Assembly: GCA_934154445.1 (NCBI GenBank)
Contig: CAKPGC010000001.1
Location: 21,787-85,786, forward strand
Source: an uncultured Clostridia bacterium
GTDB lineage: Bacteria; Bacillota; Clostridia; TANB77; CAG-508
DNA length: 64,000 nucleotides
Direction of reading: 5' to 3'
Positions 5,704 to 43,759 of the stretch are shown here, piece by piece. Each line of letters opens with the position of its first letter. Position 1 is the first letter of the stretch. The notes under the pieces are model-generated. The model saw nothing but the letters and a program-made list of their open reading frames with translations, searched no databases and was not told the origin of the DNA. The position numbers and the translations under genes are program-made.

Positions 5704-7629
5704 TTATTTTGTTTTATTCTCAACTTCATATTTTATTTTTGAAATAAACTCATCAGATTTCATCACTTCATTTTCAGCACTTTCTCTTGAACGAATTGAA
5801 ACAGAGTCTTCTTCAACTTCCTTTGCTCCAATTACTAACATATAAGGAACCTTTTCAAGTTGAGCTTCACGTATTTTATATCCAACTTTTTCATTTCTAT
5901 CATCTAAAACGACACGAATTCCAGCTTTGTGTAATTTCTCTTCAAGTGTTTTTGCATAATCATGTTGTGCATCTGTAATAGGAAGTATTTTTACTTGTGT
6001 TGGTGATAGCCATAATGGAAATGCACCTTTTGTTTCTTCAATTAAGAAACACATAAATCTATCAAATGTTCCTAAAATTGCTCTGTGGATAACAACTGGT
6101 CTATGTTTTTCTCCATCTTCTCCAACATATTCTAGCTTAAATCTTTCTGGCAATAAGAAATCTAATTGGCAAGTTGATACTGTTACATCATGTCCAACTG
6201 CTGATTTTAATTGGACATCTAATTTTGGTCCATAGAATGCAGCTTCTCCTTCTGCTTCATAGAATGGTACTCCAAGTTCTGTTAAAATTTCTCTTAATTG
6301 ACCTTCTGCTTTTTCCCACATTTCATCATCGTCAAAATATTTTTCTTTATTATTTTTGTCTCTTAAAGATAATCTAAATTCATAATCTTTAAATCCAAAA
6401 TCTTTGTAAACAGATAAAATTAATTGAACAACTTTTCCGAATTCTTCTTTTATTTGATCTGGTCTTACAAAAAGGTGAGCATCATTTTGACACATTTCAC
6501 GAACTCTCTCTAAACCGCAAACACTTCCGCTGTCTTCATATCTAAAGTCATGTGCAAGTTCTCCAATTCTTATTGGTAAATCTCTGTATGAGTGCATTTT
6601 ATTTTTATAAATAAGCATGTGATGTGGACAGTTCATTGGTCTTAATACCATTTCTTCATTATCCATTTTCATAACAGGGAACATATCTTCTTTGTAGTGA
6701 TCCCAGTGACCTGAAACTTTGTATAATTCTGTATTTGCAAGTGATGGTGTATATACATGTTGATATCCCATTTCAACTTCTTTATCTTGTATATATCTTT
6801 CTAGTAATCTTCTTACTGTTGCTCCATTTGGTAAATACATTGGAAGTCCTGAACCTACTAATGGGCTTGTCATAAATAATTCTAAGTCTTTTCCTATTTT
6901 TCTGTGATCACGTTGTCTTGCTTCTTCTAATTTTTGCATATATTCATCAACTTGACTTGCTTTTGGGAATGATATAGCATAAATTCTTTGTAGCATTTTA
7001 TTCTTTTCATCACCTCTCCAATAAGCTCCTGAAGATGATAATATTTTGACAGCTTTTACTTTTCCTGTTTTCATTAAATGTGGTCCAGCACATAAGTCTG
7101 TAAAATCACCTTGTTTGTAAAAGCTTATTTCTTCCCCATCTGCTAAATCATTTATTAATTCTTGTTTATATGGTTGTCCTTCCATTAATTTTAAAGCCTC
7201 TTGTTTTGATAAAGTAAATCTTTCTATTTCAAAATCTTCTTTTATTATTTTCTTCATTTCTGCTTCGATATTTGCTTTATCTTCATCTGTAAATGGTTTT
7301 TCTACATCAAAGTCATAGTAAAATCCATTTTCGATACTTGGTCCTATTGCAAATTTTACGTTTGGGAACAATCTTTGCACAGCTTGTGCCATTATATGTG
7401 ATGTTGTATGCCAATAAGCTTTTTTTCCATCAATACTACTTTCAAATGTTTCTATACTTAAACTGCAATCCTCTTGCAATTCGTATCTTAAGTCTTTCAC
7501 TTCTCCATTTACTATTCCACAAGTTGCCATTCTTGCTAAACCTTCACTTATTTTTTGTGCTACTTCTATTATTGAAGTTCCTTGCTCTACTTCTATATTA
7601 GAGCCATCTTTTAATGTTACCTTAACCAT
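5704..7629 (-). CDS. thrS: threonine--tRNA ligase
   Basis: 641 aa; TGS domain, class II aaRS motifs, HRKIGKDLELF. Confidence 0.95.
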   Translation of the reverse strand: MVKVTLKDGSNIEVEQGTSIIEVAQKISEGLARMATCGIVNGEVKDLRYELQEDCSLSIETFESSIDGKKAYWHTTSHIMAQAVQRLFPNVKFAIGPSIENGFYYDFDVEKPFTDEDKANIEAEMKKIIKEDFEIERFTLSKQEALKLMEGQPYKQELINDLADGEEISFYKQGDFTDLCAGPHLMKTGKVKAVKILSSSGAYWRGDEKNKMLQRIYAISFPKASQVDEYMQKLEEARQRDHRKIGKDLELFMTSPLVGSGLPMYLPNGATVRRLLERYIQDKEVEMGYQHVYTPSLANTELYKVSGHWDHYKEDMFPVMKMDNEEMVLRPMNCPHHMLIYKNKMHSYRDLPIRIGELAHDFRYEDSGSVCGLERVREMCQNDAHLFVRPDQIKEEFGKVVQLILSVYKDFGFKDYEFRLSLRDKNNKEKYFDDDEMWEKAEGQLREILTELGVPFYEAEGEAAFYGPKLDVQLKSAVGHDVTVSTCQLDFLLPERFKLEYVGEDGEKHRPVVIHRAILGTFDRFMCFLIEETKGAFPLWLSPTQVKILPITDAQHDYAKTLEEKLHKAGIRVVLDDRNEKVGYKIREAQLEKVPYMLVIGAKEVEEDSVSIRSRESAENEVMKSDEFISKIKYEVENKTK

Positions 7630-7639
7630 AATACTTCCT

Positions 7640-7925
7640 CCTTTATTCTTTTTTTAAGATAGATTATTAGTTTTAAAAAAACACACTCCTATAGATTAAA
7701 AAATCTATAGGAGTGCTTCTATTACACGGTTCCATCCTAATTTTTACTCAATTATAAGACTATAACGCATCTTACACGTTTGGTTTATTCACCAAAAACT
7801 TGAAGAGTTAGTTTTTCAAATATGTTTTCTTGAATTAGCTTTCAGCCACGGCTATTTCTCTCTTTTTAGTAACCTTTATTTTACTTTTTCTCTTACTTGC
7901 CTTTTATTATAAACTAATTATAATT
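7640..7925 (-). promoter_or_regulatory. T-box leader (tRNA-Thr sensing) upstream of thrS
   Basis: minus-sense T-box motif AAATTAGGATGGAACCGTG at 7726-7744, followed by terminator hairpin cactcctatagatt/aatctataggagtg at 7684-7716; candidate ACU specifier in Stem I. Confidence 0.75.
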
Positions 7926-9627: not shown

Positions 9628-9701
<74 letters not shown>

Positions 9702-9745: not shown

Positions 9746-9819
<74 letters not shown>

Positions 9820-9868: not shown

Positions 9869-9928
9869 GTAATTTTTAAAATTTTTTTAAATTTTTATCT
9901 TCAATTTTTATTTTGTTTGTATTCTTTT

Positions 9929-11594
<1,666 letters not shown>

Positions 11595-20942: not shown

Positions 20943-21374
20943 ATGAATAATTTTGTTTTTAAATCAAATTCTGAAAAATCAACAAAAAATTTTGCAAGAG
21001 ACTTAGCATCAAAATCAAAAAAAGGAGATGTTATTGTACTTTCTGGTGACTTGGGTTCTGGAAAAACTAAATTTACAGAGGGTTTTTTATCTTATTTTGG
21101 TCTTGAAGATGAAATTTCCAGTCCTACTTTTACAATTGTTAATGAATATCATAAAAATGATATAAATATCTATCATTTCGATGTATATAGATTAGAAGAT
21201 TCTTCTGAATTTTATGCAATTGGTGGAGAGGAATATTTTGATAAAGGAATTTGCATAATTGAATGGGGCGAAATGATTGAGGATGCTTTACCAAAAAAAT
21301 ATATTAAAATTGACTTTAATAGATGCCTCGATGATGAAAATTCAAGAATTTTAAATGTTAGTTTTATTGGATAA
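20943..21374 (+). CDS. tsaE: tRNA t6A biosynthesis ATPase TsaE
   Basis: 143 aa; P-loop LSGDLGSGKT. Confidence 0.85.
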   Translation: MNNFVFKSNSEKSTKNFARDLASKSKKGDVIVLSGDLGSGKTKFTEGFLSYFGLEDEISSPTFTIVNEYHKNDINIYHFDVYRLEDSSEFYAIGGEEYFDKGICIIEWGEMIEDALPKKYIKIDFNRCLDDENSRILNVSFIG

Positions 21375-21410
21375 TTTTAAAAATATGCCAGATTTGAAAG
21401 GAGTTTTATT

Positions 21411-22073
21411 TTGAAAATTTTATGTATCGATACTTCAAGCACATTATGTAGTGTTGCCATTTTAGAGAACACTAATTTAATTAATAAACTAGAACTAAAT
21501 AATGGTCTAACTCATTCTGAAACTTTAATGCCTTTAATTAAAGAGCTTTTTGATAAAAGCAACTTATCTTTAAAAGATATTAATTTAATAGTTTCTGACA
21601 TAGGACCAGGTTCTTTTACTGGAATTAGAATCGGAGTTGCCACATGCAAAGCTTTTTCTGATAGCTTAAATATTCCATGCATTGGTATTTCTTCTTTAGA
21701 AGTATTAGCTTATAATATTAAAAATGATGGTTTAATTTGTAGCACAATAGATTGTAAAAATGACAATTGTTATTTTGCTCTTTACGAACTTTCAAACGGA
21801 AATTATACAGTTTTAGAGCAACCTTGTGCAAAAACTGTTCAAGAGGTTTTAGATTTATTAGACAAAAAATATACAAACAAATCTATTAAATTTGTAGGTG
21901 ATGGTATTCCTACAAAATCTACAGATTGCTACTTAAATATTGAGAATCTTGGAATTGCAGGATTCAAAAAATTCGAATCTACAGAAGTTATTAATGAAAA
22001 TGTTTTACCTTTATATTTAAAGAAACCTCAAGCCCAAAAGCAATTAGAGGAGAAACTTAAAAATTCCATATAG
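21411..22073 (+). CDS. tsaB: tRNA t6A biosynthesis protein TsaB
   Basis: 220 aa; MKILCIDTSS YeaZ-type start. Confidence 0.85.
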   Translation: MKILCIDTSSTLCSVAILENTNLINKLELNNGLTHSETLMPLIKELFDKSNLSLKDINLIVSDIGPGSFTGIRIGVATCKAFSDSLNIPCIGISSLEVLAYNIKNDGLICSTIDCKNDNCYFALYELSNGNYTVLEQPCAKTVQEVLDLLDKKYTNKSIKFVGDGIPTKSTDCYLNIENLGIAGFKKFESTEVINENVLPLYLKKPQAQKQLEEKLKNSI

Positions 22074-22074
22074 A

Positions 22075-22530
22075 TTGGAGATTATTATGAATTTTAAAAT
22101 TGAAAAAATGACTATAGAATCTTTAAATTCAATACAAGATATTTTACTTTCAGATTTTGATGATTTTTGGACATATTCCATACTTAATCAAGAATTGAAT
22201 TGTGATAGTTCTTATTTTATAGTTGCAAAATCCAATGATGAAATTGTTGGTTTTGCTGGTTTAAAAGTAATTTGTGATGAAGCAGATATTATGAATATTG
22301 TTGTGAAAAAAGATTTTAGACACAATGGTATTGGTTCAATTCTATTGGATCATCTAATTTCTTATGCTAAATCATTAGATTTAAATTCTATTACTTTAGA
22401 AGTCAATGAAAATAATTTATATGCACTTAAACTATATGATAAATTCAACTTTGACCACATTGGTATTAGAAAAAAATACTATAATGGTAAAAATGATGCA
22501 ATTATAATGAGTAAAAATTTAAAAGCTTAA
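22075..22530 (+). CDS. rimI: ribosomal-protein-alanine N-acetyltransferase RimI (GNAT)
   Basis: 151 aa GNAT following tsaB, the conserved tsaE-tsaB-rimI order. Confidence 0.8.
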   Translation: MEIIMNFKIEKMTIESLNSIQDILLSDFDDFWTYSILNQELNCDSSYFIVAKSNDEIVGFAGLKVICDEADIMNIVVKKDFRHNGIGSILLDHLISYAKSLDLNSITLEVNENNLYALKLYDKFNFDHIGIRKKYYNGKNDAIIMSKNLKA

Positions 22531-23395: not shown

Positions 23396-25238
23396 TTATT
23401 TAAAATCTTTTTTGTTTTGAACATTTTGGTACAAATTTTCCAATTCCTCCACTGTTCCATGTTTTATAAACTCATCAGGCCAAGATTTTTTTTCCATTTT
23501 TATATTTTGTAATTTTTCTTCTACAATTAGTTCTTCTATTGCTGTTCCAAGTCCATTAATTTTTGTTCCATCTTCCATAGTAATAACATTTTTGGTTTTG
23601 TTTATAGATTCTTTTATTGTTTCAATATCTAATGGTTTCAAGAATCTTGCATTTATAACTTCTGCATCTATTCCATCTTTTTCGTAATCTTTAGCTAACT
23701 CCATTGCTTTAGCAACTCTTTTACCAATCGCAATTATAGTTATATCTTGTCCTTTTCTTAAAATTTCAGATTTTCCTAATTCTATTTTTTGATGTTTTTC
23801 AAATTTTATTTTTTCATCTTCTCCACCTCTTGGATATCTGATTACAACCGGTTTATTTAAAGTTATTGCAAATTCCATCATATCTTCTAGTTCTTTAAAA
23901 TCTTTTGGTGACATTATTGTTAAATTTGGAACTAATCTAAAAAATGCCATATCCAGTGTTCCTTGATGTGTTTCTCCGGTCTTGTCCAACTACGCCTGCT
24001 CTGTCAACACACATTATTACAGGCAAGTCTTGTATTGCTACATCATGTATTACTTGATCATAAGCTCTTTGATAAAAAGATGAATATATTGGAACAAAAG
24101 GTATCATTCCTTCTTTTGCCATTCCAGCAGCCATTGTTATAGCATGTTGTTCGGCTATTCCTACATCAAAAAATCTTTTTGGAAATTCTTTTTGAAATCT
24201 AGATAATCCTGTTCCATCTTTCATAGATGCTGTTACTGCCACAATTTTATCATTATTTTGGGCTAGTTCTACTAACTTTTCTCCAAATATCTTTGAGTAA
24301 TCCTCTCTTTTTTCTTTTTTAGCTATTCCTGTTTTAATATCAAAAGGTGCTGTTGCATGAAATCTATCAGGATTTTCTTCTGCAATTTTATATCCCTTTC
24401 CTTTTTTTGTTAAAACATGAATTAAAACAGGTGCTTCGACTTGTTTACTTAATCTCAATATATTTTCTAACTGTTCTATATCATGTCCATCAACTGGTCC
24501 AAGATATGTAAATCCTATATCCTCAAAAAACATTTTAGGTATTATTAGTTGTTTTATACTTCTTTTTATTCTTTGTATTATTTTAACACTTGGCTTTCCT
24601 ATTAGTGGTATTTTATTTATCATCTTTTTAATTGATACATTTGACTTTGTGTATAATTTTTTTGTTCTTAGCTTACTTAAAAACATATTTAATCCACCAA
24701 TATTTGGGGATATACTCATTTCATTGTCATTTAATATAACTGTCATTTTTGTATTACTACATCCTGCATCATTTAATGCTTCCAAAGCCATTCCACCGGT
24801 TAATGCTCCATCTCCAATTACACTAATTACGTAATTACTTTTTCCTTTTAAATCTCTTGCTCTTGCCATTCCTAAAGCTGCTGATATTGATGTACTACTG
24901 TGACCTGTATCAAAATTATCATATTCTGATTCGTTTATTTTTGGAAATCCGGATAATCCATTTAATTTTCTTAATGTTTTAAAATTTTCTCTTCTTCCTG
25001 TAATTATTTTATGTACATAAGATTGATGTCCAACATCCCAAACTATTTTATCTTTTGGCATGTCAAAAACACTATGAAGTGCTATTGTAAGCTCTACAAC
25101 ACCTAAATTTGATGCTAAATGTCCTCCATTTTCTGATACAACTTTTAATATATATTCTCTTAGTTCTTGTGCTAATTTATTTTTTTCTTCTATACTTAAT
25201 TTTTTTAAATCTTCTGGTGAATTAATTTCTTCTAACAT
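23396..25238 (-). pseudogene. dxs: 1-deoxy-D-xylulose-5-phosphate synthase interrupted by a single +1 frameshift
   Basis: 433-aa N-part and 197-aa C-part; junction reads VVGQD/GETHQGTLD after removing one extra C in GACCGGA at about 23976-23979. Confidence 0.85.
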
Positions 25239-34934: not shown

Positions 34935-35840
34935 TTATCCTATAAAATTCAATATATCTTTATATACAAGATTACTTTCTTTTTCATTTAATATTTCATG
35001 TCTCATGCCATCATATAATTTGTTTTGTATATTCTTATAGCCTAAGTTCTTTAAAAACTCCTGGCTTTCAAGCCATTTCTCTTTATTTATTATAACAGGA
35101 TCGTTGCTTCCAGCAATGAATAATATTGGTAGATTTTTATTATTTAACTTCCAACCATTTTTGTCATAAATATCTATCATCAATCCAAATAAGTTTTGGA
35201 AACCATTTGCAGTAAATATAAATCCGCATAATTCATCTTTATCATAATTGTTCACAGTTTCTTCGTTATCACAAATCCATGAATTTTCAGATTTTTCTTT
35301 TTTTGAACTATAACTTCCAAAAGCGAGCTTTTGGATGAATTTACTCCTATATTTTTCTCCTTTTAACTTTTCTATTAGTTTTGCAACATTTAATCCTACC
35401 TTCGCATATTTATTTCTACTTGGTGAACCACAAACAATTAACTTATCTATCTCATCATCATATTTTTTAATATATTTTCTAACTACCATTGAACCCATAC
35501 TGTGCCCAAATAATACAACTGGTTTGTTAGGATATTGTTCTTTCATTAATTTTGTTATTTGATATAAATCTTCAACTATATACTCAGCACTATTATCATA
35601 GAAATAGCCTAAATCATCAGTGTTTTTTACACTTTTTCCATGTCCTCTATGGTCATTTATAACTGTAACATATCCATTTTGAGCTAAATATTCCATAAAT
35701 TCATAATAACGTTCTTTATGCTCCGCCATACCATGTGATATTTGAAAAATTCCTTTTATTTCATTTTTCGGCTTAATCACAGTTATGTCTAAATCTAGAC
35801 CATCACATTTTGATTTTATTGTAAAAAATTTTTTATCCAC
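34935..35840 (-). CDS. alpha/beta hydrolase (lysophospholipase / monoacylglycerol lipase-like)
   Basis: 301 aa; GHSMGS nucleophile elbow, HGMAEH. Confidence 0.75.
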   Translation of the reverse strand: MDKKFFTIKSKCDGLDLDITVIKPKNEIKGIFQISHGMAEHKERYYEFMEYLAQNGYVTVINDHRGHGKSVKNTDDLGYFYDNSAEYIVEDLYQITKLMKEQYPNKPVVLFGHSMGSMVVRKYIKKYDDEIDKLIVCGSPSRNKYAKVGLNVAKLIEKLKGEKYRSKFIQKLAFGSYSSKKEKSENSWICDNEETVNNYDKDELCGFIFTANGFQNLFGLMIDIYDKNGWKLNNKNLPILFIAGSNDPVIINKEKWLESQEFLKNLGYKNIQNKLYDGMRHEILNEKESNLVYKDILNFIG

Positions 35841-35894
35841 TTAATTATCTCCTTTCGAGCGTCTAAGTATATTTATATAATATCTTGTTTTACT

Positions 35895-35947
35895 ATGTAA
35901 GTGTTACTATATAAGTTTTCTAAGTTTTTGCGGTTATAATATATATT
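35895..35947. repeat. direct repeat R' (copy of the sequence 3' of the full rhuM gene)
   Basis: tatgtaagtgtt..ataagttttctaagtttttgcggttataatatata matches 37218-37270. Confidence 0.6.
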
Positions 35948-36102
35948 TCTGCTGCTGTATTACCTGTAATCGCATAGTGAAATTTGTTTTGAACAGTTGC
36001 ATAAAATTGTTGTGTTGTATCAGAATTTTTATCATAATCTATACTGCAATTTATATATCTGTTTTTATCTCCATTATTAATCTTTGTATATTCATTCCAC
36101 AT
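35920..36102 (-). pseudogene. remnant of a RhuM-family gene (internal segment fused to repeat R')
   Basis: CSIDYDKNSDTTQQFYATVQNKFHYAITGNTAAEI matches residues from the middle of the intact RhuM at 37287-38306. Confidence 0.5.
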
Positions 36103-36521
36103 TTTTCATAAAATTGAATTGCACTTTCATTAAAATTCCAACAATTCAATTCAACTGCATCATAATTTTTTTCTTTTGCAATTTTTTTTACTTCTGAAAA
36201 TAAATTTTTACCTATTCCCATTTTTCTAACTTTTTCATCTACAACTAATTCGTCTATATATAAAGTTGTTCTATCTTTTAGATTTATATTTTCTTTAACT
36301 TCTTTAATTTTATAAACAATAACTCCATATATATTATTATTTTCTTCTGCAACTAATATGTTTTCCTTGTTATTTATTCTATTATTAAATTCAGTCTTTA
36401 TTTCTTCAATACTTTTTTCTTTAAAAATATCTTTTCTGGCATTACTATGAATTTTTGCTACTTGTAACATTAGTTCACTAATTTTATTTACATCTTCTAT
36501 TTGTGCATTTCTAATATTCAT
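36051..36521 (-). CDS. GNAT family N-acetyltransferase
   Basis: 156 aa; acetyl-CoA binding motif VRKMGIGKNLF. Confidence 0.8.
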   Translation of the reverse strand: MNIRNAQIEDVNKISELMLQVAKIHSNARKDIFKEKSIEEIKTEFNNRINNKENILVAEENNNIYGVIVYKIKEVKENINLKDRTTLYIDELVVDEKVRKMGIGKNLFSEVKKIAKEKNYDAVELNCWNFNESAIQFYEKCGMNIQRLIMEIKTDI

Positions 36522-36544
36522 ATTTTTATATCCTCCTTAAATTA

Positions 36545-37078
36545 CTAGTTATCTTTAACTTTTTTCTTTAAATCTTTTGAATAATATATTAAATCAGTAC
36601 AAGTTAATTCTCCGTCCTTAATTTCTTCATCATAATTATCTATAAAGAAATTCTTAATTGTTTTTTCATATTTATCAAAACCTTGTTTTACATAGAATGG
36701 AATGTTATTTTGAGTTGTCCCTACTATCATTTTTTTATATTTTTGTTTATAATTATCGGTTAGATACTTAATCATTTTCTTTCCATAGCCATTATTTCTA
36801 TACTCTTGTTTAGTTACTATATTTTTTAATTCTACAGTATCTTCATCTAATTTTATCACAACCGCAATGCAAACAACATCTTCTTTGTATGTTAAAATAA
36901 ACAATTCTCCATTTTGTAAATACTTATTTATTAAATCTTTACTAGAATCTGCTTCTAATAGTAAATTCATATATAAGTTTTTATTTTCTCTTTCTTTTTT
37001 TATGTTTATAATTCTTTTTACCGGTTCAAATTCAAATCCATCTGGTAATTTAGGTTTACTATTCGTTTTTTGTAACAT
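36545..37078 (-). CDS. GNAT family N-acetyltransferase, paralog of the C-terminal domain of the QueH-GNAT fusion
   Basis: 177 aa; about 85-90% protein identity to residues about 160-348 of the 39592-40638 product; nucleotide identity is also high. Confidence 0.8.
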   Translation of the reverse strand: MLQKTNSKPKLPDGFEFEPVKRIINIKKERENKNLYMNLLLEADSSKDLINKYLQNGELFILTYKEDVVCIAVVIKLDEDTVELKNIVTKQEYRNNGYGKKMIKYLTDNYKQKYKKMIVGTTQNNIPFYVKQGFDKYEKTIKNFFIDNYDEEIKDGELTCTDLIYYSKDLKKKVKDN

Positions 37079-37217
37079 GCTTTGTTCTTCTCAACTCCTC
37101 GTATCTAACCATACAAATTTGCGTACCCTGCCGTTCTTCATTAAAATAATTATAATATCAAGGGTTTCGAGGACTTTTTTCTTCAATTTTCCCTATTTTT
37201 CAATATTTTCATAATTT

Positions 37218-37270
37218 TATGTAAGTGTTCTTACATAAGGTTTTCTAGTTTTTGCGGTTATAATATATAA
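37218..37270. repeat. direct repeat R (contains 9-bp hairpin ttatgtaag/cttacataa 3' of rhuM)
   Basis: matches 35895-35947. Confidence 0.6.
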
Positions 37271-37286
37271 CCTCCTTTACTTTTAA

Positions 37287-38306
37287 TTACTTTTTAATAT
37301 TTAATCTATTGGCTTCAATAAGCAACTTATCAAAATCCGAAACTATCTTTTGATTTTTATTAAATTCATTATACTCTTTTTCCGCCTTTTCTTCTGCCTG
37401 TTTTCCTGAAATTTTTCCATTATCTTTTAAAATATCATATTTTCTAAATTCCAAAAATTCATTTATACTTTTTGCAAATTCTTCCATAGTAAATGTGTTT
37501 TCTCTTTCTACTAGGTCTTCTATATAATCAAAATATCCTGAAACCGTTCTCTCTAATCTTTTTATTTGTTTTTCATCTAGATAGTTTTTAGCAATCATTA
37601 CATCTGATTTTAATATTCTTCCATCTGGTGAATTTTTCCACGTTGTTAAGCCCATATTTTCTTTAGTATGATCTGCTTTTTGATATATTATTTCTGCAGC
37701 TGTATTACCTGTAATTGCATAATGAAATTTATTTTGAATAGTTGCATAAAATCGTTGTGTTGTGTCAGAATCTTTATCATAATCTATACTGCATTCTGCA
37801 AATATATCTGTTATCTGTTGCCATATTCTTCGTTCACTTGTTCTAATTGAACGAATTCTCTCTAATAATTCTTTGAAATAGTCTTTCCCAAATTTTGGTC
37901 CGTTTTTAAGTAATTCATCATTTAAAACAAATCCTTTTTTTATGTATTCTTTTAATGTATTAGTTGCCCATATTCTAAAATCTGTTGCTTGTTTTGAGTT
38001 TACTCTATATCCAACGGCTATAATTACATCTAAACTATAAAATGATATTTCTCTTGAAACCTCTCTGTTTCCTTCTTTCTGAACTGTTCGAATTTTTCGA
38101 ATAGTTCGATTTTCTTCTAATTCATGTGTTTCAAAAATTTCTTTTAAATGATAATTTATTGTGTTCACTTCTACTTCAAATAATTTTGACATTGATTTTT
38201 GAGTCAACCAAAAATCTTCATTATCATATAAAACTTCTACTGATATATTTTCATTATTTTGGCTTTGATACACGATTAAATCTTTTAAATTTTCTATCGG
38301 ATTCAT
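37287..38306 (-). CDS. RhuM-family virulence-associated protein
   Basis: 339 aa; recalled from RhuM-family homologs (Pfam Virulence_RhuM) via motifs such as DFRIWATNTLKEYIKKGF and YATIQNKFHYAITGNTAAEI; not verified by search. Confidence 0.7.
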   Translation of the reverse strand: MNPIENLKDLIVYQSQNNENISVEVLYDNEDFWLTQKSMSKLFEVEVNTINYHLKEIFETHELEENRTIRKIRTVQKEGNREVSREISFYSLDVIIAVGYRVNSKQATDFRIWATNTLKEYIKKGFVLNDELLKNGPKFGKDYFKELLERIRSIRTSERRIWQQITDIFAECSIDYDKDSDTTQRFYATIQNKFHYAITGNTAAEIIYQKADHTKENMGLTTWKNSPDGRILKSDVMIAKNYLDEKQIKRLERTVSGYFDYIEDLVERENTFTMEEFAKSINEFLEFRKYDILKDNGKISGKQAEEKAEKEYNEFNKNQKIVSDFDKLLIEANRLNIKK

Positions 38307-38362
38307 ATTTATACTCTCATCCTCCTCTCTATTTTTCTATAACTTGTAGTTTCTCGCTATCA

Positions 38363-39535
38363 TTAACATGACTCTTTCTCAACTTTATTCAAATAGAAAT
38401 TATATATTTTATTGTTTGCTATATTCATAAGTTTAGCTAATATTATGCTTAATCCAATTACTAGAATAGCATATAAATAATCAACTCTGCAATAAAAGCG
38501 AGGATTTCTCAATAAATACATAACTAATCCATGATATAAATAAATTTCAAAAGATATATTTCCCAAAAAAGTAAATACCTTATCATTTAATCTCACTTTT
38601 TCTAATATAGTAAACAATACAAAAAGTAATGCTATACAAATAATATTCATATTTATAACAGGAATAGGCTCTCTCATTATATCGTCTGCTAGATCTGTAT
38701 CGTTTATTATATCCATAATGGCATATCCACTTGTGAAGAATTGAATCCCTATTATTGCAAATAATATAATTGAAAGCATAATTGCATATCTAATTATTTT
38801 ATTTTTGTCTTTTAATGTTATTGCATATTTTTCTTTATAACTTGCCCAATATATACCTATAAAAAATGCAAAACAAGAATTAACCCACCAATTATTAAAG
38901 CCTAAAATATTATTAATAACTATGCAATATAAAATAGTTCCACCAAATACTGCAATATTTATCATTTTTTTCTTTTTTAGAAACTTGGCTGATAAATAAA
39001 AAACTACATATAAACTAATAATTGCTAACATATACCACGAAAATCTTACAACTGGCTCTCCTTCAACTAAAGAATTAAAAATTTTTCTAGGTGTTAATTG
39101 TCCAGTTAATAGATATACTAAAATAGTAAATATAATTGCTATTATATATGGTATAACTATTTTCATTATTCTTTTATTCAAAAAGTCTTTTAGATAATTT
39201 TCTTTTTTTAGATAGCTTTTCATTAGTCCATATCCTGAATAAAAGAAAAATGCTGAAACTGCAATAACTCCTACTATTGTAAATACTTTAAGTAGAATTG
39301 TGTCTTTTATATAAATAGACAAGTGGTGTATTATTATCAATAATGCCAATAGTCCCTTTATTTTATTACTATTGTATTTATCCAATACATCATTATTTGC
39401 ATTAAAAATAGATTTTCTTTTTATTATTAGGCATATAATTCCTATTAAAAATATTATATCTACTATGTTAATATTAAATATTGCTACATCATTGGGTAAT
39501 GGATAAATACTGTCTGATTTTATTGTTGGTAACAT
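38363..39535 (-). CDS. acyltransferase family 3 (OafA/YrhL-like) membrane O-acyltransferase
   Basis: 390 aa; about 10 TM helices with the AT3 family layout. Confidence 0.7.
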   Translation of the reverse strand: MLPTIKSDSIYPLPNDVAIFNINIVDIIFLIGIICLIIKRKSIFNANNDVLDKYNSNKIKGLLALLIIIHHLSIYIKDTILLKVFTIVGVIAVSAFFFYSGYGLMKSYLKKENYLKDFLNKRIMKIVIPYIIAIIFTILVYLLTGQLTPRKIFNSLVEGEPVVRFSWYMLAIISLYVVFYLSAKFLKKKKMINIAVFGGTILYCIVINNILGFNNWWVNSCFAFFIGIYWASYKEKYAITLKDKNKIIRYAIMLSIILFAIIGIQFFTSGYAIMDIINDTDLADDIMREPIPVINMNIICIALLFVLFTILEKVRLNDKVFTFLGNISFEIYLYHGLVMYLLRNPRFYCRVDYLYAILVIGLSIILAKLMNIANNKIYNFYLNKVEKESC

Positions 39536-39591
39536 ATACTTTGTTCTCCTATTACTACTAATAAATACATATTAAAGTAAGCGATAACTTA

Positions 39592-40638
39592 CTATTTATC
39601 TTTAACTTTTTTCTTTAAATCTTTTGAATAATATATTAAATCAGTACAAATTAAATCTCCATCTTTAATTTCTTCATTGTAATTATCTATAAAGAAATTT
39701 TTAATTGTTTTCTCATATTTATCGAATCCTTGCTTAACATAGAAAGGAATGTTATTCTCCGTTGTTCCTACCAACATTCTGTCGTATTTCTGCTTATAAT
39801 TACCACATAGCGATTTTAAAAGTTTTTTTGCATAACCTTTATTTCTATAACTTTCTTTCGTAACTATATTCTTTAACTCTAACGTTTTTCTATCAATGTG
39901 CAAAATAACTGCAATAGAAATTAGCTCATCTCCCTTTTTTAAAGCATATACATCAGAATCGTTCAAATACTTGTGTATCATATCTTTTGAAGGATCTGCT
40001 TCTAAAAGTAAATCAATATAATCTTCTTTATTTTCTATTTTTTTAACCTGCATTCTAGGTTCTCTTTGCATCTCATAACCATTGGGAATACTAGGTTTCG
40101 TGGTATTGCGGTTATTATATCTCATCTCCTCTGAAAACACACATCCACAATACTTTTGCATGTACAATTCTAGCTCTCTTGCTTTTGCTTGTCCCTCTCT
40201 AAAACCTACTCTAAAATCCCTATACAAAAAATCAATACCATATTCCTTACTTAATTTTTCCATACATTCCTTAATAAAATTATGATTTTGATATATACTA
40301 TATAAAAGTGTAGTTGTAACTGTATCATATCCATTTTTTTTAGCATATTCAAATGTTTTTCTTAATCTCACAGGATAGCAATAATTTGTACATCTATTTT
40401 GTAAGTCTCCTACAACATTTTTACAAAATTCATCTAATCCATAATCTTCCTCAAATATAGCCTCAATATTTATATTTTTTGTATATTCTTTTAAACAATC
40501 TCTTCTCGCCTTATATTCCATATATGGGTGTATATTGGGATTATACCAATACACGGTTGGTTCTATTCCTTCTTTTCTTAAACTGTCTATGCAATAAACA
40601 CTACAAGGTGCACAACATGTATGCATTAATAATTTCAT
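39592..40638 (-). CDS. queH: fusion protein: epoxyqueuosine reductase QueH (DUF208) N-domain plus GNAT acetyltransferase C-domain
   Basis: N-terminal MKLLMHTCCAPCS..YCGCVFSEE matches the QueH Cys-motif family; C-terminal half is a GNAT paralogous to 36545-37078. Confidence 0.75.
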   Translation of the reverse strand: MKLLMHTCCAPCSVYCIDSLRKEGIEPTVYWYNPNIHPYMEYKARRDCLKEYTKNINIEAIFEEDYGLDEFCKNVVGDLQNRCTNYCYPVRLRKTFEYAKKNGYDTVTTTLLYSIYQNHNFIKECMEKLSKEYGIDFLYRDFRVGFREGQAKARELELYMQKYCGCVFSEEMRYNNRNTTKPSIPNGYEMQREPRMQVKKIENKEDYIDLLLEADPSKDMIHKYLNDSDVYALKKGDELISIAVILHIDRKTLELKNIVTKESYRNKGYAKKLLKSLCGNYKQKYDRMLVGTTENNIPFYVKQGFDKYEKTIKNFFIDNYNEEIKDGDLICTDLIYYSKDLKKKVKDK

Positions 40639-40654
40639 TTTTTGTTCCTCTTTC

Positions 40655-42233
40655 TTAATCTTCTATTACAACATACCTCTTAAATTCTTTTATTTTATGA
40701 TTTTCTAAGTCAAACTTATCTATGTCTTCATTTTTTATAACATAAACATTTCCCTCTTTTAGTTCTAACTCTTCTATATTATCAATATAATATTTTCCGA
40801 AGGATTTCACGTTTTTAAATTCTGCATAAGGGTCTTCATAAACTACAGTTTTTATAAAATCCATAGTATCATATTGTGTATAAAATAGTACATGTATATA
40901 ATTTGATTGTATTTTGTCTGTTATATATATTTTTTTGTCATTTATTTTATCAACATATTCAATTACTTCTTGTAAATCTCCTTCAAATGTTCCATATTCA
41001 TTACAATCTTGATGTGAATATTTATAAATGAATAAACCAAATGATATTATATATATAATTAAAATTGGTATTGTTAGTTTTCTTATTTTGCTTGTTGCTA
41101 TATAAATTCCTACTATAGTATAATAAATTATTGGAATCATTATTATATTTAATCTATTTATATTAGGTTCACATATAAATGTTAAAATTATTCCTACTAT
41201 AAACCATAAATTAAATATAAAATTGTATTTAATTTCAACTATTTTATTTTTCTTAAATGAATGTACTAATCCAATTATTGTAAATAAAGTAGAAAATAAA
41301 TAAGTTATTCCATAAGGTTCAATATTATTCCATGGAAGTCCATCTGATTGTGTTATTAATACTTTCATACTTTGTATAAAGTTTGATTTACTACTAGAAA
41401 AGAAATTACCTGAAAACATTGATGTTAAAACTTTATATCTATTTACTTCTAATTTAGGTATCGTTACAAAAGGTAAATTTATTTGTTCTAAACCAAACGT
41501 ATTTATAATAACATACAAAATTATTGGTAAAGAAACTATTGCTACAATTGAAATTGAAATTATAGCTTGTTTTATTGTTACTTTCTTATTTTTAATTAAT
41601 ATTATTAATAATGGTATTAAAAAGACTGGTAAAAAATAATATGATGTTCCATAAGAATAAGCAGAAATTCCTGCTATTGCAAATGATAAATAGTACAAAA
41701 TTTTATTTTTGTCTTCTATTCCTTTTATTAATAAGTATGTAAAAATAAGTATTAAATCTGGGAATAAATTAGATTCTAATCCCCATCTACTTTTCATTAT
41801 ATGCCATGGGCATATTGCAAAAAATGCTAATCCTATTATTGCTAATTTATTATTAGATATTTTTCTTAATAACAAATACATTATTACTAATGATATGCAT
41901 CCTAATATTGCCATTGGTAGTCTTACTGATAATAGATTTAATCCCAATACCTTTATAAATGGTATCATAAGGTATGATAATAATGCATTTTGTCCTCCAC
42001 CCCAAGCTACAAGAAATGCAGGTAATTTATTTCCGGTTTCTATCAATTCCATAATTCAAAATCGAAAAAGCTTCATATCCTGCTGATGCTTCGTCACAAT
42101 TTAAAGCATTTGGCATATCTGCAATTCCAACTATTCTAACTAACATTCCTACTATAAATATTATTAAAATTATCATATACAAAAAGTATTTATTTTTTGT
42201 TAATTGATTTTTCAATTTATCTATAAACCTCAT
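40655..42233 (-). pseudogene. GT39/PMT_2 (ArnT-like) membrane glycosyltransferase interrupted by one +1 frameshift
   Basis: 68-aa N-piece (NCDEASAGYEAFSILNYGIDRN) and 465-aa body (GNKLPAFLVAWGGGQNALLSY) join as DRNGNKLP after removal of one C in AACCGGA at about 42033-42036. Confidence 0.7.
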
Positions 42234-43759
42234 ACATACTTACCTCTCCTATTTTTTCTAAATTGTTCCTTATATATTTTATAACATCTAATGGTGTTTG
42301 CCAATTAGTTTCTATATTTTCATTTCTAATCAAATATAAAGTATTTTCATCCTTTTTCTTTATTTTTTCTATTTGTCCCTCTTGTCCATCTTTTCCTATA
42401 TTTCCTATTAAAAACATATCATAATCTTTGTTGTATTTATCTAAAGGCACCATATATATAACCGCTTCTACATCCAATATATAAACCTTATTTCCTTGTA
42501 GTTCTTTTTTTAAAATATACTCATCTATATTATCTATTCTATCTCTTATCCCTTCTCTTATTTCAATATTTTTATAATGTTTTATTTCTGTATTTTTATC
42601 AATTTTTATATACCTATATACATTGTTAATAGATTCTATTAAAATAACTGAAAATATTAATATCCATATATAAAAAGATATTATTTTATACAATTTATAT
42701 TTTCTAGCAAATTTAATTTTATTATATACATATTTACCAAATAAGACAATCATATAAATTAATCCAATTATTGCAATTAAACTTCCTATTAGAAAATGTA
42801 TTTCATCTGATATTGGATACATAACGATTATTATTGAAAAACTATACATTAAAATTGTTAATAAATTTAATATTTTTACATTTTTCTTTTTTAATACTTT
42901 TGTTATTATCAATATAATCGCCATAAGCATAATTGAAATTGGCATTAATATTGAAAGAACTCTTATTTCTATTTTATTATTTTTTAACAATCCTAAATAA
43001 GATATTCTATTTGAGAATGTACCTATTCCAAACACAGCATAATTCATAAATTCTTGTATTGCTTCAGTTACTAATAAATATATAAACAAAATAACAACTG
43101 GTATTAGTATTCCCAATATTCTAGTTATTGCTATTTTTATATATTGTTTAAATTGTTCTTTATTTTCTACAAACAATAACCTATAAAATACAACTATTCC
43201 TGAAAGAGTTATTCCAATACTATGTTTTGTACATATTGCAAGTCCTGCTAAAACTCCGTATCAATAAATTTTTTTTGAAATTAGTTATTTCAAAATTTTT
43301 TAATTCCATATATAAAATAACAATAGCAATTAATAATACTAAGGCATTATAATCTATGCAATATATATTTCTACACAAAATTCCTATTAAAGCAACACAA
43401 ATTAAAATTATATTTTCTTCTTTAAATAATAGTATAAATACTTTATATATCATAAATAAAATTACTGTCCAAAGAATTGCTGCCAAAATTCTTGATATTA
43501 TTACTTCATTTACAATTAATTTTAAGAATATTGCAGTTATGATAGGAAGCAATGGTGTTGTTATCATACTTATATCTTTATATGGAATTAAACCTTCTGA
43601 TATTGCTCTTGCTGTATTATAATTCCATAATTCATCCAAATTACTTATCGGTTTTATTATAATTATTGAAAATATTGCTATAAATATAAAAGCAATTAAT
43701 AAAATTTCTTTCTTTTTCATATTTTTGCTTTCCTTTTCATTTCTAGTATTATATCTCAT
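42217..43759 (-). pseudogene. polytopic membrane protein (GT-C-like) interrupted by one +1 frameshift
   Basis: 179-aa and 319-aa pieces; the downstream frame stays open back to the junction, giving ..NLLI/GVLAGLAICTKHSIG.. after removal of one C in ATACGGA at about 43256-43258. Confidence 0.5.

What the first reader, a model, noticed from the sequence alone, without database searches (positions are those of the whole stretch)
39592..40638. QueH (epoxyqueuosine reductase) fused to a GNAT acetyltransferase domain
The N-terminal 160 aa carry the QueH/DUF208 Cys motifs (HTCCAPCS..YCGCVFSEE), which reduce epoxyqueuosine in the tRNA anticodon. The C-terminal 190 aa are a complete GNAT fold. GNAT enzymes that act on tRNA exist (TacT/AtaT toxins acetylate aminoacyl-tRNA; TmcA acetylates the wobble cytidine). 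A covalent QueH-GNAT fusion therefore suggests a second tRNA-directed modification coupled to queuosine maturation, or an acylation of the Q base itself. A near-identical stand-alone GNAT paralog lies 2.5 kb away. The sequence upstream of that paralog (37079-37215) shows faint similarity to the queH 3' end, as if a second fusion copy had decayed.
Basis: partly seen in the sequence, partly recalled or inferred. Interest (0 to 1): 0.6.

Follow-up and report, generated by a model that had tools for sequence, protein, structure and literature searches.

The report
QueH-GNAT fusion created by mobile DNA
A tRNA-modification enzyme (QueH) really is joined to an acetyltransferase in this gut bacterium and about 50 related species, but the acetyltransferase half arrives on inserted mobile DNA that splices into the end of the queH gene, so the join does not show that the two enzymes work together.

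Summary
The 348-aa ORF at 39592-40638 (-) is real. It has a complete QueH domain (res 3-171, all Cys ligands), a roughly 25-aa linker predicted to be disordered, and a YvbK-type GNAT with an intact CoA motif. The exact protein recurs on 4 independent contigs. Intact fusions occur in 50 GTDB species representatives of uncultured gut Clostridia, and both halves are under purifying selection.

The gene is a mosaic that switches history at codons Glu170-Glu171 (GAGGAG, 40131-40126). In six species the queH body is 70-81% identical. From GAGGAG onward, the linker, the GNAT and 1.5-3.5 kb of ParA/ParB-bearing DNA are 93-100% identical. In L076, two tandem large serine recombinases sit directly upstream of a displaced "S-E-E...GNAT" tail.

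In the window, about 3 kb (GNAT tail, an Acyl_transf_3 gene, RhuM, and a conserved 72-nt end element at 37162-37091) appears to have been inserted into an older queH::GNAT gene. The stand-alone "paralog" (37078-36545) is 63% identical, not near-identical. It looks like the displaced old tail, because it still starts with the fusion linker.

I found no evidence for a tRNA- or Q-directed GNAT, though it is not excluded. This is a new variant of a known kind: integration into a gene's 3' end with a replacement tail.

The parts
40132..40638 (-). queH body (codons 1-169): the host-lineage part of the gene. It encodes epoxyqueuosine reductase with Cys8, 9, 12, 83, 87, 164 and 166.
   Evidence: Pfam QueH, 190 bits. 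PDB 7LC5 QueH, E 1e-23. The Cys residues are invariant in 46 orthologues. CCxPC is present in 110 of 112 relatives. dN/dS is 0.03-0.35 with dS 0.8-2.1 against other species.
40126..40131 (-). Junction core GAGGAG (Glu170-Glu171), where the gene's evolutionary history switches.
   Evidence: The best breakpoints of the identity switch fall at codons 159-197 in the F-type comparisons, most often 167-172. An alignment of six species varies upstream of GAGGAG and is nearly identical from GAGGAG onward.
40048..40125 (-). Linker (res 172-197). It is variable between species and predicted disordered. It keeps the last conserved QueH residues, R173 and Y174.
   Evidence: Linker types are listed. AF2 pLDDT is 32-43 for res 163-194. 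R173 and Y174 are invariant.
39592..40047 (-). F-type YvbK-like GNAT domain plus stop codon. It has the CoA motif R265-N-K-G268-Y-A270.
   Evidence: Pfam Acetyltransf_1/7/10. PDB 6AO7 E 4e-21, 1YVK E 4e-19, 1Y9K E 4e-15. dS is only 0.13-0.47 against L001-L016, L027 and L053, while the queH body dS is 0.8-1.9.
38363..39535 (-). Acyl_transf_3 membrane O-acyltransferase, cargo of the inserted segment.
   Evidence: Pfam, E 3e-30. Its first 39 aa are 100% identical in L008, directly after the fusion gene.
37287..38306 (-). RhuM-family gene, a candidate single-gene defence or toxin gene. It is the last gene of the inserted segment.
   Evidence: Pfam Virulence_RhuM, E 1e-109. PADLOC PDC-S05, E 1e-154. 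PMC3710099 proposes RhuM as a toxin domain. rhuM dS is 0.34-0.87, against 0.96-1.9 for the queH body in the same genome pairs.
37091..37162 (-). Conserved junction (end) element with core CAGGGTACGCAAATTT at 37130-37115. It ends in TGA (37093-37091), directly in front of the displaced queH tail.
   Evidence: nhmmer E 1e-5 to 1e-20 in L001, L019, L021, L023, L024, L026, L028 and L035. Also in contigs L082 and L083 (part of the model's seed alignment, along with L001, L023, L026 and L035, so matching by construction) and in L085-87. It is always on the queH strand and always followed by a queH-type tail. There is no Rfam hit and no consensus RNA fold.
37079..37090 (-). Displaced queH tail codons E-E-Q-S, in frame with the paralog.
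   Evidence: Compare L036 ...CGCIFSEEQMILTHTNEKPVLPEGFEF.
36545..37078 (-). Stand-alone P-type GNAT (177 aa). It is the displaced old linker plus GNAT of a former queH::GNAT gene, now starting at a Met inside the linker.
   Evidence: 63% identical to the fused GNAT. 67-77% identical to the GNATs that are fused to QueH in L026, L033-34, L036-40, L043-47 and L049 (65% in L051). dN/dS is 0.14-0.24 against those copies.
36051..36521 (-). Second GNAT of a different subfamily, directly downstream of the displaced GNAT.
   Evidence: Pfam Acetyltransf_1, E 2e-17.
35894..36063 (-). rhuM remnant (an internal piece) joined to a repeat of the rhuM 3' flank. It is a trace of an older rhuM-bearing segment.
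   Evidence: 36063-35939 matches rhuM in about 14 loci. 35945-35894 is 91% identical to 37269-37218.

Best explanation
The ORF encodes a genuine two-domain protein. The N-terminal domain is the epoxyqueuosine reductase QueH, which performs the last step of queuosine synthesis on tRNA. A flexible linker of about 25 residues joins it to a YvbK-type GNAT acyl-CoA N-acyltransferase of unknown substrate.

The join is a mobile-element junction. In this clade of gut Clostridia, the codons Glu170-Glu171 of queH (GAGGAG, just after the last metal-binding CGCxFS motif) are a recurrent insertion point. The incoming DNA starts in frame with a replacement queH tail (EE-x-RY...) that runs on into a linker and a GNAT. 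The insertion therefore rebuilds an intact QueH domain and also expresses the element's GNAT from the host's queH promoter and start codon. The old tail is pushed to the far end of the insert.

In the window the insert is a recombinase-less segment of about 3 kb (40131 to 37091). It carries the F-type GNAT tail, an O-acyltransferase, a RhuM-family candidate defence gene and a conserved 72-nt end element. The displaced old tail, with its linker and P-type GNAT, survives as the 177-aa 'paralog' and starts at a Met inside the old linker.

Shown: the domain content, the conservation, the mosaic boundary, the inter-species near-identity of the tail and its downstream DNA, the displaced tails, and a pair of large serine recombinases next to one displaced tail.

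Inferred: that serine recombinases catalyse the insertions, that the window's small insert is a remnant or satellite of such elements, and that the two enzyme activities act independently.
For: Architecture and reality of the fusion.

Both halves are functional. The Cys ligands and the R-x-x-G-x-A motif are invariant, and dN/dS is 0.03-0.35.

The gene is a mosaic. Against the window, the queH body has dS 0.8-1.9, while the F-type GNAT has dS 0.13-0.47 in 18 species. Breakpoints cluster at codons 159-197.

Mobile DNA is involved. In L005, L007, L010, L014, L015 and L016, the upstream flank is about 50% identical (unalignable) and the queH body is 70-81% identical. The tail plus GNAT is 96-99% identical, and the next 1.5-3.5 kb (a 207-aa ORF, ParA, ParB) is 85-100% identical (93-100% over the first 1.5 kb). 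The switch falls at GAGGAG.

A recombinase is present in one case. L076 has two tandem large serine recombinases (Resolvase + Recombinase + Zn_ribbon) ending about 125 nt upstream of a displaced '...IY|SEEDRYNNRNTTKP...GNAT' tail.

Displaced tails recur. A conserved end element is followed by queH-type tails of several kinds in 8 GTDB species plus the window. The tails are the short EEDRYSKQIKRD type, the L069 type, or a linker plus GNAT. Those tail types also exist as live queH tails in sister species.

Assemblies break in or just after the GNAT, or exactly at the junction in L074 and L075.

The linker is predicted disordered, with pTM 0.52.

The genes next to the end element are candidate defence genes: RhuM is PDC-S05 and YhcG is PDC-S02.
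Against: No recombinase lies in the window's 3-kb segment, nor in the other small rhuM, YhcG or Fic segments.

The conserved end element shows only faint, statistically unsupported similarity to queH, to the GNAT, or to the L076 right end.

I never saw both ends of one recombinase-bearing element in a single locus, because flanks were limited to 6-10 kb.

dS values above 1 are saturated, so only the contrast with the low values is reliable.

A single ancient insertion, followed by homologous exchange of the interior, could explain part of the pattern for the small segments.

Independence of the two enzyme activities is inferred from distribution and modelling. It has not been tested.
Confidence: 0.6

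Rival explanations
1. Functional Rosetta-stone fusion. QueH serves as a tRNA-binding module for the Asp, Asn, His and Tyr tRNAs. It brings the GNAT to tRNA, where the GNAT acylates Q or a precursor (for example the amine of preQ1 or Q), or the aminoacyl moiety. This would be a second, coupled tRNA modification.
For: The fusion is kept intact with dN/dS well below 1 in both halves in 50 species. Two GNAT subtypes (F and P) are both found fused. An unrelated GNAT type is independently fused to QueH in another organism, on 3 contigs (P0144). A distant relative has ruvB-queH::GNAT (P0130).
Against: Close relatives (QueH 82-88% identical) have QueH alone. Stand-alone and displaced GNAT copies stay intact under purifying selection. 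The GNAT half is exchanged independently of QueH. The GNAT family is YvbK-like, and no hit to TacT, AtaT or TmcA appears in the PDB, NCBIfam or PADLOC. The linker is variable and predicted disordered, and no interface is predicted. QueH is also fused to ThiF and a cytidylyltransferase elsewhere, and possibly to a DinB-like domain (sub-threshold match).
Confidence: 0.15
2. One ancient fusion, inherited vertically. The paralog arose by local tandem duplication. The conserved 72-nt element is simply a promoter or leader of the downstream copy. Apparent mosaicism reflects stronger constraint or gene conversion, and no mobile-element insertion is involved.
For: The small segments carry no recombinase. 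In some genomes the element supplies an in-frame start (MKNDRVREF...) for the downstream GNAT (P0333, P0346). The C-terminal 55 codons of the two window copies are 90% identical, mostly because dN is low.
Against: It cannot explain 96-100% nucleotide identity of the tail, GNAT and ParA/ParB block across species whose queH bodies are 70-81% identical and whose upstream flanks do not align. It also cannot explain the low synonymous divergence of the F-type GNAT. It does not account for end elements followed by short, GNAT-less queH tails (L001, L019, L021, L024, L026, L028, L035). It does not account for serine recombinases abutting a displaced tail.
Confidence: 0.2
3. Artefact. The fusion would be an assembly chimera, or a missed stop or frameshift joining two adjacent genes.
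For: Many MAG contigs break in or near the GNAT. Some odd chimeras (P0123, P0140) exist only on single short, low-coverage contigs.
Against: The identical ORF is present on 4 independent contigs, including a 166-kb contig at 25x. 50 species have intact in-frame fusions with conserved residues across the junction.
Confidence: 0.02

Closest known systems
QueH (DUF208, PF02677) epoxyqueuosine reductase, for example Thermotoga maritima QueH (PDB 7LC5)
   Same: Full-length match to the family model (res 3-171, 190 bits), with E 1e-23 to 7LC5. The CCxPC, RC...C and YCGC Cys motifs are conserved.
   Different: It carries a 175-aa C-terminal extension (linker plus GNAT). Position 12 is Cys, as in most relatives, where T. 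maritima has Asp. The tgt and queA partner genes are not in the window.
YvbK-type GNATs (B. subtilis YvbK 1YVK; 6AO7; B. cereus 1Y9K), structural-genomics proteins with no assigned substrate
   Same: These are the best solved relatives of the C-terminal domain (E 4e-21 to 4e-15). They share the LLL(E/A)ADPS, R/Q-x-x-G-x-G/A and FF.DNY...I..G..C.D(L/M) motifs.
   Different: Those proteins are stand-alone, 157-163 aa. Here the domain is translated as the tail of QueH. No function can be transferred, because none is known (one search found no functional literature).
Integrative elements that insert into the 3' end of a conserved gene and supply a replacement end: e14/phage 21 in icd, and SCCmec in rlmH(orfX) with tandem ccrA/ccrB large serine recombinases and recombinase-less pseudo-SCC remnants (from my own knowledge of that literature)
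   Same: The insertion point inside the gene's last codons is precise and recurrent. The incoming DNA restores the gene's conserved end (EE-x-RY). The old end is displaced to the far junction. There is a tandem pair of large serine recombinases at one end (L076). Small recombinase-less segments and stacked remnants sit at the same site.
   Different: The replacement end carries a whole extra enzyme domain, so insertion creates a host-element chimeric protein. Both att arms of one element were not recovered. The small segments end in a conserved 72-nt element of unknown role.
   Same: They share the GNAT fold and the acetyl-CoA motif. There is physical proximity to a tRNA-binding enzyme.
   Different: No sequence match in the PDB at E<=1, NCBIfam or PADLOC. 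No adjacent RHH or antitoxin gene. No TmcA helicase-like module. The stand-alone copies have no partner.
Chromosomal hotspots for defence or accessory genes flanked by core genes (from my own knowledge: E. coli and P. aeruginosa defence hotspots)
   Same: Content downstream of queH is hypervariable: 218 ORFs fall into 147 clusters across loci. It includes the candidate defence genes RhuM (PDC-S05) and YhcG (PDC-S02), plus a Fic/DOC-like ORF judged from its motif only.
   Different: The boundary lies inside the core gene's reading frame and produces a fusion protein.

Membership tests
QueH (PF02677) | Full-length match above the curated Pfam threshold | tested here: met
   190.4 bits against a cut-off of 23.5, covering res 3-171 of a 175-position model.
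QueH (PF02677) | Conserved cysteine metal ligands (CCxPC, C...C, CGC) | tested here: met
   C8, C9, C12, C83, C87, C164 and C166 are invariant in 46 orthologues. The protein aligns with 7LC5. The assignment of these residues as cluster ligands is from my memory of the 7LC5 paper, which I could not retrieve.
QueH (PF02677) | Genome encodes the upstream Q pathway (tgt, queA) that supplies the oQ-tRNA substrate | not testable with these tools
   Neither gene is in the 64-kb window.
GNAT superfamily | Match to GNAT models above threshold, and the R/Q-x-x-G-x-G/A acetyl-CoA motif | tested here: met
   Acetyltransf_1 38.5 bits (cut-off 20.7), Acetyltransf_7 38.6 (27), Acetyltransf_10 33.4 (23.6). 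R265, G268 and A270 are invariant.
YvbK-like GNAT subgroup | Closest sequence relatives are 1YVK, 6AO7 and 1Y9K, over the whole domain including the C-terminal FF.DNY..I..G..C.D motif | tested here: met
   E 4e-21 to 4e-15, aligned over 132-143 residues.
TacT/AtaT-type tRNA-acetylating GNAT toxins | Sequence relationship to the toxin family, and an adjacent antitoxin gene | tested here: not met
   No such chain among the PDB hits at E<=1. No PADLOC hit. The neighbours are Acyl_transf_3 and PMT_2 genes.
TmcA (tRNA cytidine acetyltransferase) | GNAT joined to a helicase-like ATPase module, and a match to TmcA models | tested here: not met
   Only QueH and generic GNAT models match.
RimI | Score above the TIGR01575 cut-off | tested here: not met
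   25.9 bits against a cut-off of 86.4. A better RimI candidate lies next to tsaE-tsaB at 22075-22530.
Large-serine-recombinase integrative element targeting queH | Recombinase gene(s) adjacent to the junction | tested here: inconclusive
   Met in L076: two tandem genes with Resolvase + Recombinase + Zn_ribbon_recom, ending about 125 nt from the displaced tail. Not met in the window's 3-kb segment, nor in the L001, L023, L026 and L035 segments.
Large-serine-recombinase integrative element targeting queH | Same insertion point in different hosts, with element DNA far more similar than the flanks | tested here: met
   Six species have queH bodies 70-81% identical and flanks of about 50%, but the tail, GNAT and first 1.5 kb of downstream DNA are 93-100% identical (85-100% in the next 1.9 kb). 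The switch is at GAGGAG.
Large-serine-recombinase integrative element targeting queH | Both junctions (attL and attR) of one element recovered, or excised and empty forms seen | not testable with these tools
   Flanks were limited to 6-10 kb. Pattern scans of viral and JGI metagenome contigs found nothing.
PADLOC candidate defence system PDC-S05 (RhuM) | Match to PDC-S05 models | tested here: met
   E 1e-154 for window 37287-38306. Its defence activity has not been tested.

The most novel reading that the evidence does not exclude
The element-borne GNAT is deliberately tethered to QueH so that it reaches the Q-family tRNAs (Asp, Asn, His, Tyr) or their aminoacylated forms. It would then act as a tRNA-directed acetyltransferase. 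That could be a new Q-derived modification, or a translation-targeting effector working with the adjacent RhuM, YhcG or Fic-type candidate defence genes. Mobile elements would install this activity by splicing it onto a host tRNA-modification enzyme.
Probability: 0.1. Interest if true: 0.85.

Novelty: new variant of a known kind. Interest (0 to 1): 0.5.

Why it matters
Domain fusions are widely read as evidence that two activities work together. Here a conserved fusion, kept in frame under purifying selection in about 50 species, appears instead to come from mobile DNA inserting into a gene's last codons and carrying its own replacement tail. That is a concrete caution for Rosetta-stone inference.

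It also suggests a way for a promoter-less, start-less cargo gene to get expressed, by riding on a housekeeping gene's transcription and translation.

It identifies the GAGGAG site in queH as a candidate attachment site for large serine recombinases, and as a hotspot for candidate defence genes, in abundant uncultured human-gut Clostridia. If the alternative tRNA-directed reading were true, it would point to a new tRNA modification or effector.

Tried and rejected
1. Decayed queH upstream of the paralog. Local alignment against 50 queH 3' ends gave p of about 0.09-0.18 against shuffles. nhmmer and hmmsearch with fusion-gene profiles found nothing upstream of 37090. Rejected, except for the four EEQS codons.

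2. The 72-nt element as a decayed GNAT 3' end. Weak frame-1 similarity appeared in blastx (E 2-14), but an element HMM searched against the fusion genes gave E>0.3. Unsupported.

3. The element as a riboswitch or structured RNA. There was no Rfam hit and RNAalifold predicted no pairs. Rejected.

4. The element as an integron attC. It contains GTTRRRY-like words, but there is no inverse core and the crossover position is wrong. Rejected by inspection.

5. Promoter and terminator scans gave no more hits than shuffled sequence. Uninformative.

6. GNAT chimeras with other N-termini (P0123 radical-SAM piece, P0140 membrane piece). Each sits on one contig under 2 kb (about 2x coverage for P0123), so they may be mis-assemblies and were not used.

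7. Gene conversion between the two window GNAT copies. The C-terminal identity is mostly low dN (dS 0.59 against about 1.0 elsewhere). Not convincing.

8. Scans for the element in viral contigs and JGI metagenome contigs found 0 hits.

9. The L005-type element has no close relative among known plasmids or phages. Only weak ParA/ParB similarity was found.

10. Literature. I found no paper linking QueH to a GNAT fusion or to an integration site, and none describing YvbK function. The primary QueH papers were not retrievable.
Full report
**1. The observation**

The minus-strand ORF at 39592-40638 is uninterrupted and encodes 348 aa. Pfam places QueH at residues 3-171 (E 4e-56, 190 bits) and several GNAT models at about residues 220-312. 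NCBIfam gives only sub-threshold GNAT matches; RimI scores 25.9 bits against a cut-off of 86.4.

The N-terminal half matches the solved Thermotoga maritima QueH (7LC5, E 1e-23). The C-terminal half matches three uncharacterised structural-genomics GNATs: 6AO7, B. subtilis YvbK (1YVK) and B. cereus 1Y9K (E 4e-21 to 4e-15).

The window is ordinary chromosome of a low-GC (22-31%) spore-former. It holds the dnaK operon, groEL, polA, ruvB, tsaE-tsaB-rimI, dpaA and gpr. queH sits in a cell-envelope glycosylation cluster about 7 kb downstream of ruvB. No tgt or queA gene is in the window.

**2. The fusion is real and conserved**

- The identical protein is on four independent metagenome contigs. One is a 166-kb, 25x Hadza gut contig with the same gene order.
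- The 120 best-scoring 90%-identity clusters (85-96% identical) all carry both domains.
- Among GTDB species representatives, 50 have an intact 334-368 aa in-frame fusion. NCBI labels them uncultured Clostridia, Clostridium sp. CAG:571, CAG:343, 26_22 and similar.
- All seven cysteines of the QueH motifs and the GNAT CoA motif R265-x-x-G268-x-A270 are invariant in 46 orthologues. CCxPC is the rule in 110 of 112 more distant QueH representatives.
- dN/dS is 0.03-0.35 for both halves.
- At 50% clustering the architecture is rare. There is one main cluster, a distant ruvB-linked relative (P0130), and an independent fusion to an unrelated GNAT type (P0144, on 3 contigs).
- QueH is also fused to ThiF and a cytidylyltransferase elsewhere, and possibly to a DinB-like domain (sub-threshold Pfam match).

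**3.

The stand-alone GNAT at 36545-37078 is 63% identical in protein and 77% in DNA. Only its last 55 codons reach 90% nucleotide identity, mostly through low dN.

The 37079-37215 stretch has no similarity to queH 3' ends beyond chance.

**4. Two GNAT types and loss of the GNAT**

The fused GNATs fall into an F type, like the window's fused copy, and a P type, like the window's stand-alone copy. Both types occur fused to QueH in other species.

Sister species whose QueH is 82-88% identical have a 183-187 aa QueH ending ...SEEDRYSKQIKRDK*, with no GNAT.

The paralog's N-terminus, MLQKTNSKPKLPDGFEFEPVKR, is the inter-domain linker of the P-type fusions. The four codons upstream of its ATG read EEQS, compared with L036 ...CGCIFSEEQMILTHTNEKPVLPEGFEF. 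The paralog therefore descends from a fusion gene.

**5. The gene is a mosaic that switches at Glu170-Glu171**

Against the window, the queH body has dS 0.8-1.9. The F-type GNAT half has dS 0.13-0.47 in L001-L016, L027 and L053. In the other direction, L026 has the closest QueH (90%) but a P-type GNAT. The best breakpoints in the F-type comparisons fall at codons 159-197, most often 167-172.

The clearest case involves six different GTDB species: L005, L007, L010, L014, L015 and L016.

| Segment | Pairwise nucleotide identity |
|---|---|
| Upstream flank (1.5 kb) | about 50% (unalignable) |
| queH body | 70-81% |
| Linker + GNAT | 96-99% |
| Next 1.5 kb (207-aa ORF, ParA) | 93-100% |
| Following 1.9 kb (ParB and beyond) | 85-100% |

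The alignment shows synonymous variation up to ...TT(T/C)(TCA/AGT) and near-identity from GAGGAG onward. A block of DNA that begins in frame at GAGGAG and includes the GNAT has therefore spread recently between species, and sits in each species' own queH.

**6. A recombinase and displaced tails**

In L076, two tandem large serine recombinases (548 and 573 aa; Resolvase + Recombinase + Zn_ribbon_recom) are preceded by a sigma-r4-like gene and a DUF6870 gene. They end about 125 nt upstream of ...TTTGTGGGTTTATGATATTTAT|TCAGAGGAGGACAGATAT.... That sequence is a displaced S-E-E-D-R-Y-linker-GNAT(F) tail with no queH body in front of it.

Two other contigs (L074, L075) begin exactly at this junction. 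Many contigs end in or just after the GNAT. This is what a repeated or variable boundary would produce in an assembly.

A conserved 72-nt element (window 37162-37091, core CAGGGTACGCAAATTT) occurs once per locus. It is on the queH strand, 1.7-5.7 kb downstream of the fusion gene, in L001, L019, L021, L023, L024, L026, L028 and L035. It also occurs in metagenome contigs L082, L083 and L085-87. Seven of these copies (the window, L001, L023, L026, L035, L082, L083) formed the seed alignment of the search model, so the independent detections are L019, L021, L024, L028 and L085-87 (nhmmer E 1e-5 to 1e-13).

The element is always followed immediately by a queH-type tail that starts at the S-E-E codons:
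- the short EEDRYSKQIKRD... tail (L001, L024 and L026; diverged or frameshifted versions in L019, L021 and L028);
- the L069-type tail (L035);
- a linker plus GNAT (window, L023, L082, L083, L085).

These tail types exist as live queH tails in sister species.

The gene next to the element varies. It is RhuM (PADLOC PDC-S05, E 1e-154, and proposed as a toxin domain in PMC3710099), YhcG/DUF1016 (PDC-S02), a GNAT, or in L083 an ORF with a Fic/DOC-like motif (judged by eye from the translation, not run against Pfam). None of these small segments carries a recombinase. rhuM dS between genomes (0.34-0.87) is lower than queH-body dS for the same pairs.

**7. Reading of the window**

I infer that a segment of about 3 kb (40131 to 37091) was inserted at GAGGAG into an older queH::GNAT(P) gene. 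The segment carries the linker and F-type GNAT, Acyl_transf_3, rhuM and the end element.

The old tail was displaced and is now read from a Met in its linker. It is still under purifying selection (dN/dS 0.14-0.24 against fused P-type GNATs).

Further downstream lie a second GNAT, then a rhuM remnant with a 91% repeat of the rhuM 3' flank (36063-35894). These look like an older layer of insertion at the same site.

L085 has the same layout in the same ruvB...polA context, with different cargo.

**8. Function**

AF2 used a shallow 46-sequence alignment. It models QueH confidently (pLDDT 80-97). The linker (res 163-194) scores pLDDT 32-43, and pTM is 0.52. No fixed interface is predicted.

The replacement tail keeps the last conserved QueH residues (EE-x-R173-Y174), so QueH is probably intact.

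The GNAT substrate is unknown. Its family has no tRNA connection, and there is no match to TacT, AtaT or TmcA.

I judge it most likely that the two activities are independent, and that the fusion mainly serves to express element cargo. The recurrence of QueH-GNAT fusions with an unrelated GNAT (P0144) means a tRNA-directed role cannot be excluded.

**9. Limits**

- Both ends of one recombinase-bearing element were never recovered.
- The role of the 72-nt element is unknown. It has no Rfam hit, no consensus fold, and no significant similarity to queH or the GNAT.
- dS values above 1 are saturated.
- All the genomes are MAGs.
- The rest of the Q pathway could not be checked.
- No literature describing this fusion or this integration site was found in the searchable library.

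Noticed in passing
window 40655-42233 (-): The PMT_2-type glycosyltransferase just upstream of queH is split into a 68-aa ORF (42027-42233) and a 465-aa ORF (40655-42052) that overlap by 26 nt. This looks like a frameshift. The same split is called in the independent contigs L094 and L095.
   Followed up: partly
window 23396-25238 (-): DXP synthase appears split into two overlapping ORFs. One is 433 aa (DXP_synthase_N + Transket_pyr) and the other is 197 aa (end of Transket_pyr + Transketolase_C).
   Followed up: no
window 9628-9701 and 9746-9819 (-): Two tandem tRNA-Gly(TCC) genes have identical Rfam scores (73 bits). They lie next to groEL.
   Followed up: no
L088, L089, L090: 9616-10654: In another species, ruvB-linked queH::GNAT(P) carries a single frameshift at about codon 58. 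It is identical in three independent assemblies (and indexed in 46 blocks), and the rest of the gene is intact. It could be recent inactivation of QueH with the GNAT retained, or slippage at an A-run.
   Followed up: partly
window 37091-37162 (-); L085 10001-10696; P0333, P0346: In some genomes the conserved end element is open in frame (MKNDRVREF.WLD.RSPEE...). It then supplies a start codon and an N-terminal leader to the displaced GNAT. In the window a TGA (37093-37091) closes this frame.
   Followed up: partly
L001 9780-9830: After the displaced short queH tail in L001 there is a GNAT fragment (..NNIPFYVKQG..). The ORFs that follow the fusion gene (7084-7842) and the end element (9922-10707) are paralogues (DUF4362-like). 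This suggests repeated layers of insertion.
   Followed up: no
L077 6001-6960; P0124, P0132, P0145, P0261: QueH carries other C-terminal or N-terminal additions in other lineages. These include an unassigned 135-aa tail, a ThiF domain, a possible DinB-like domain (sub-threshold Pfam match) and an N-terminal cytidylyltransferase. The C-terminal additions begin right after the SEE/SEQ codons.
   Followed up: partly
window 34935-44738: queH lies within a run of surface-glycan genes: two PMT_2, GtrII, Acyl_transf_3, a GH130/GH43-like gene, an amine-oxidase/UGM-like gene, and Alg13/Alg14-like genes further up. In L085 ruvB is separated from queH by only one gene, so this block also varies between relatives.
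   Followed up: no
window 20943-22530 (+): A tsaE-tsaB-GNAT (RimI-like) operon is present. This GNAT is a better candidate for RimI than the fused or stand-alone GNATs.
   Followed up: no
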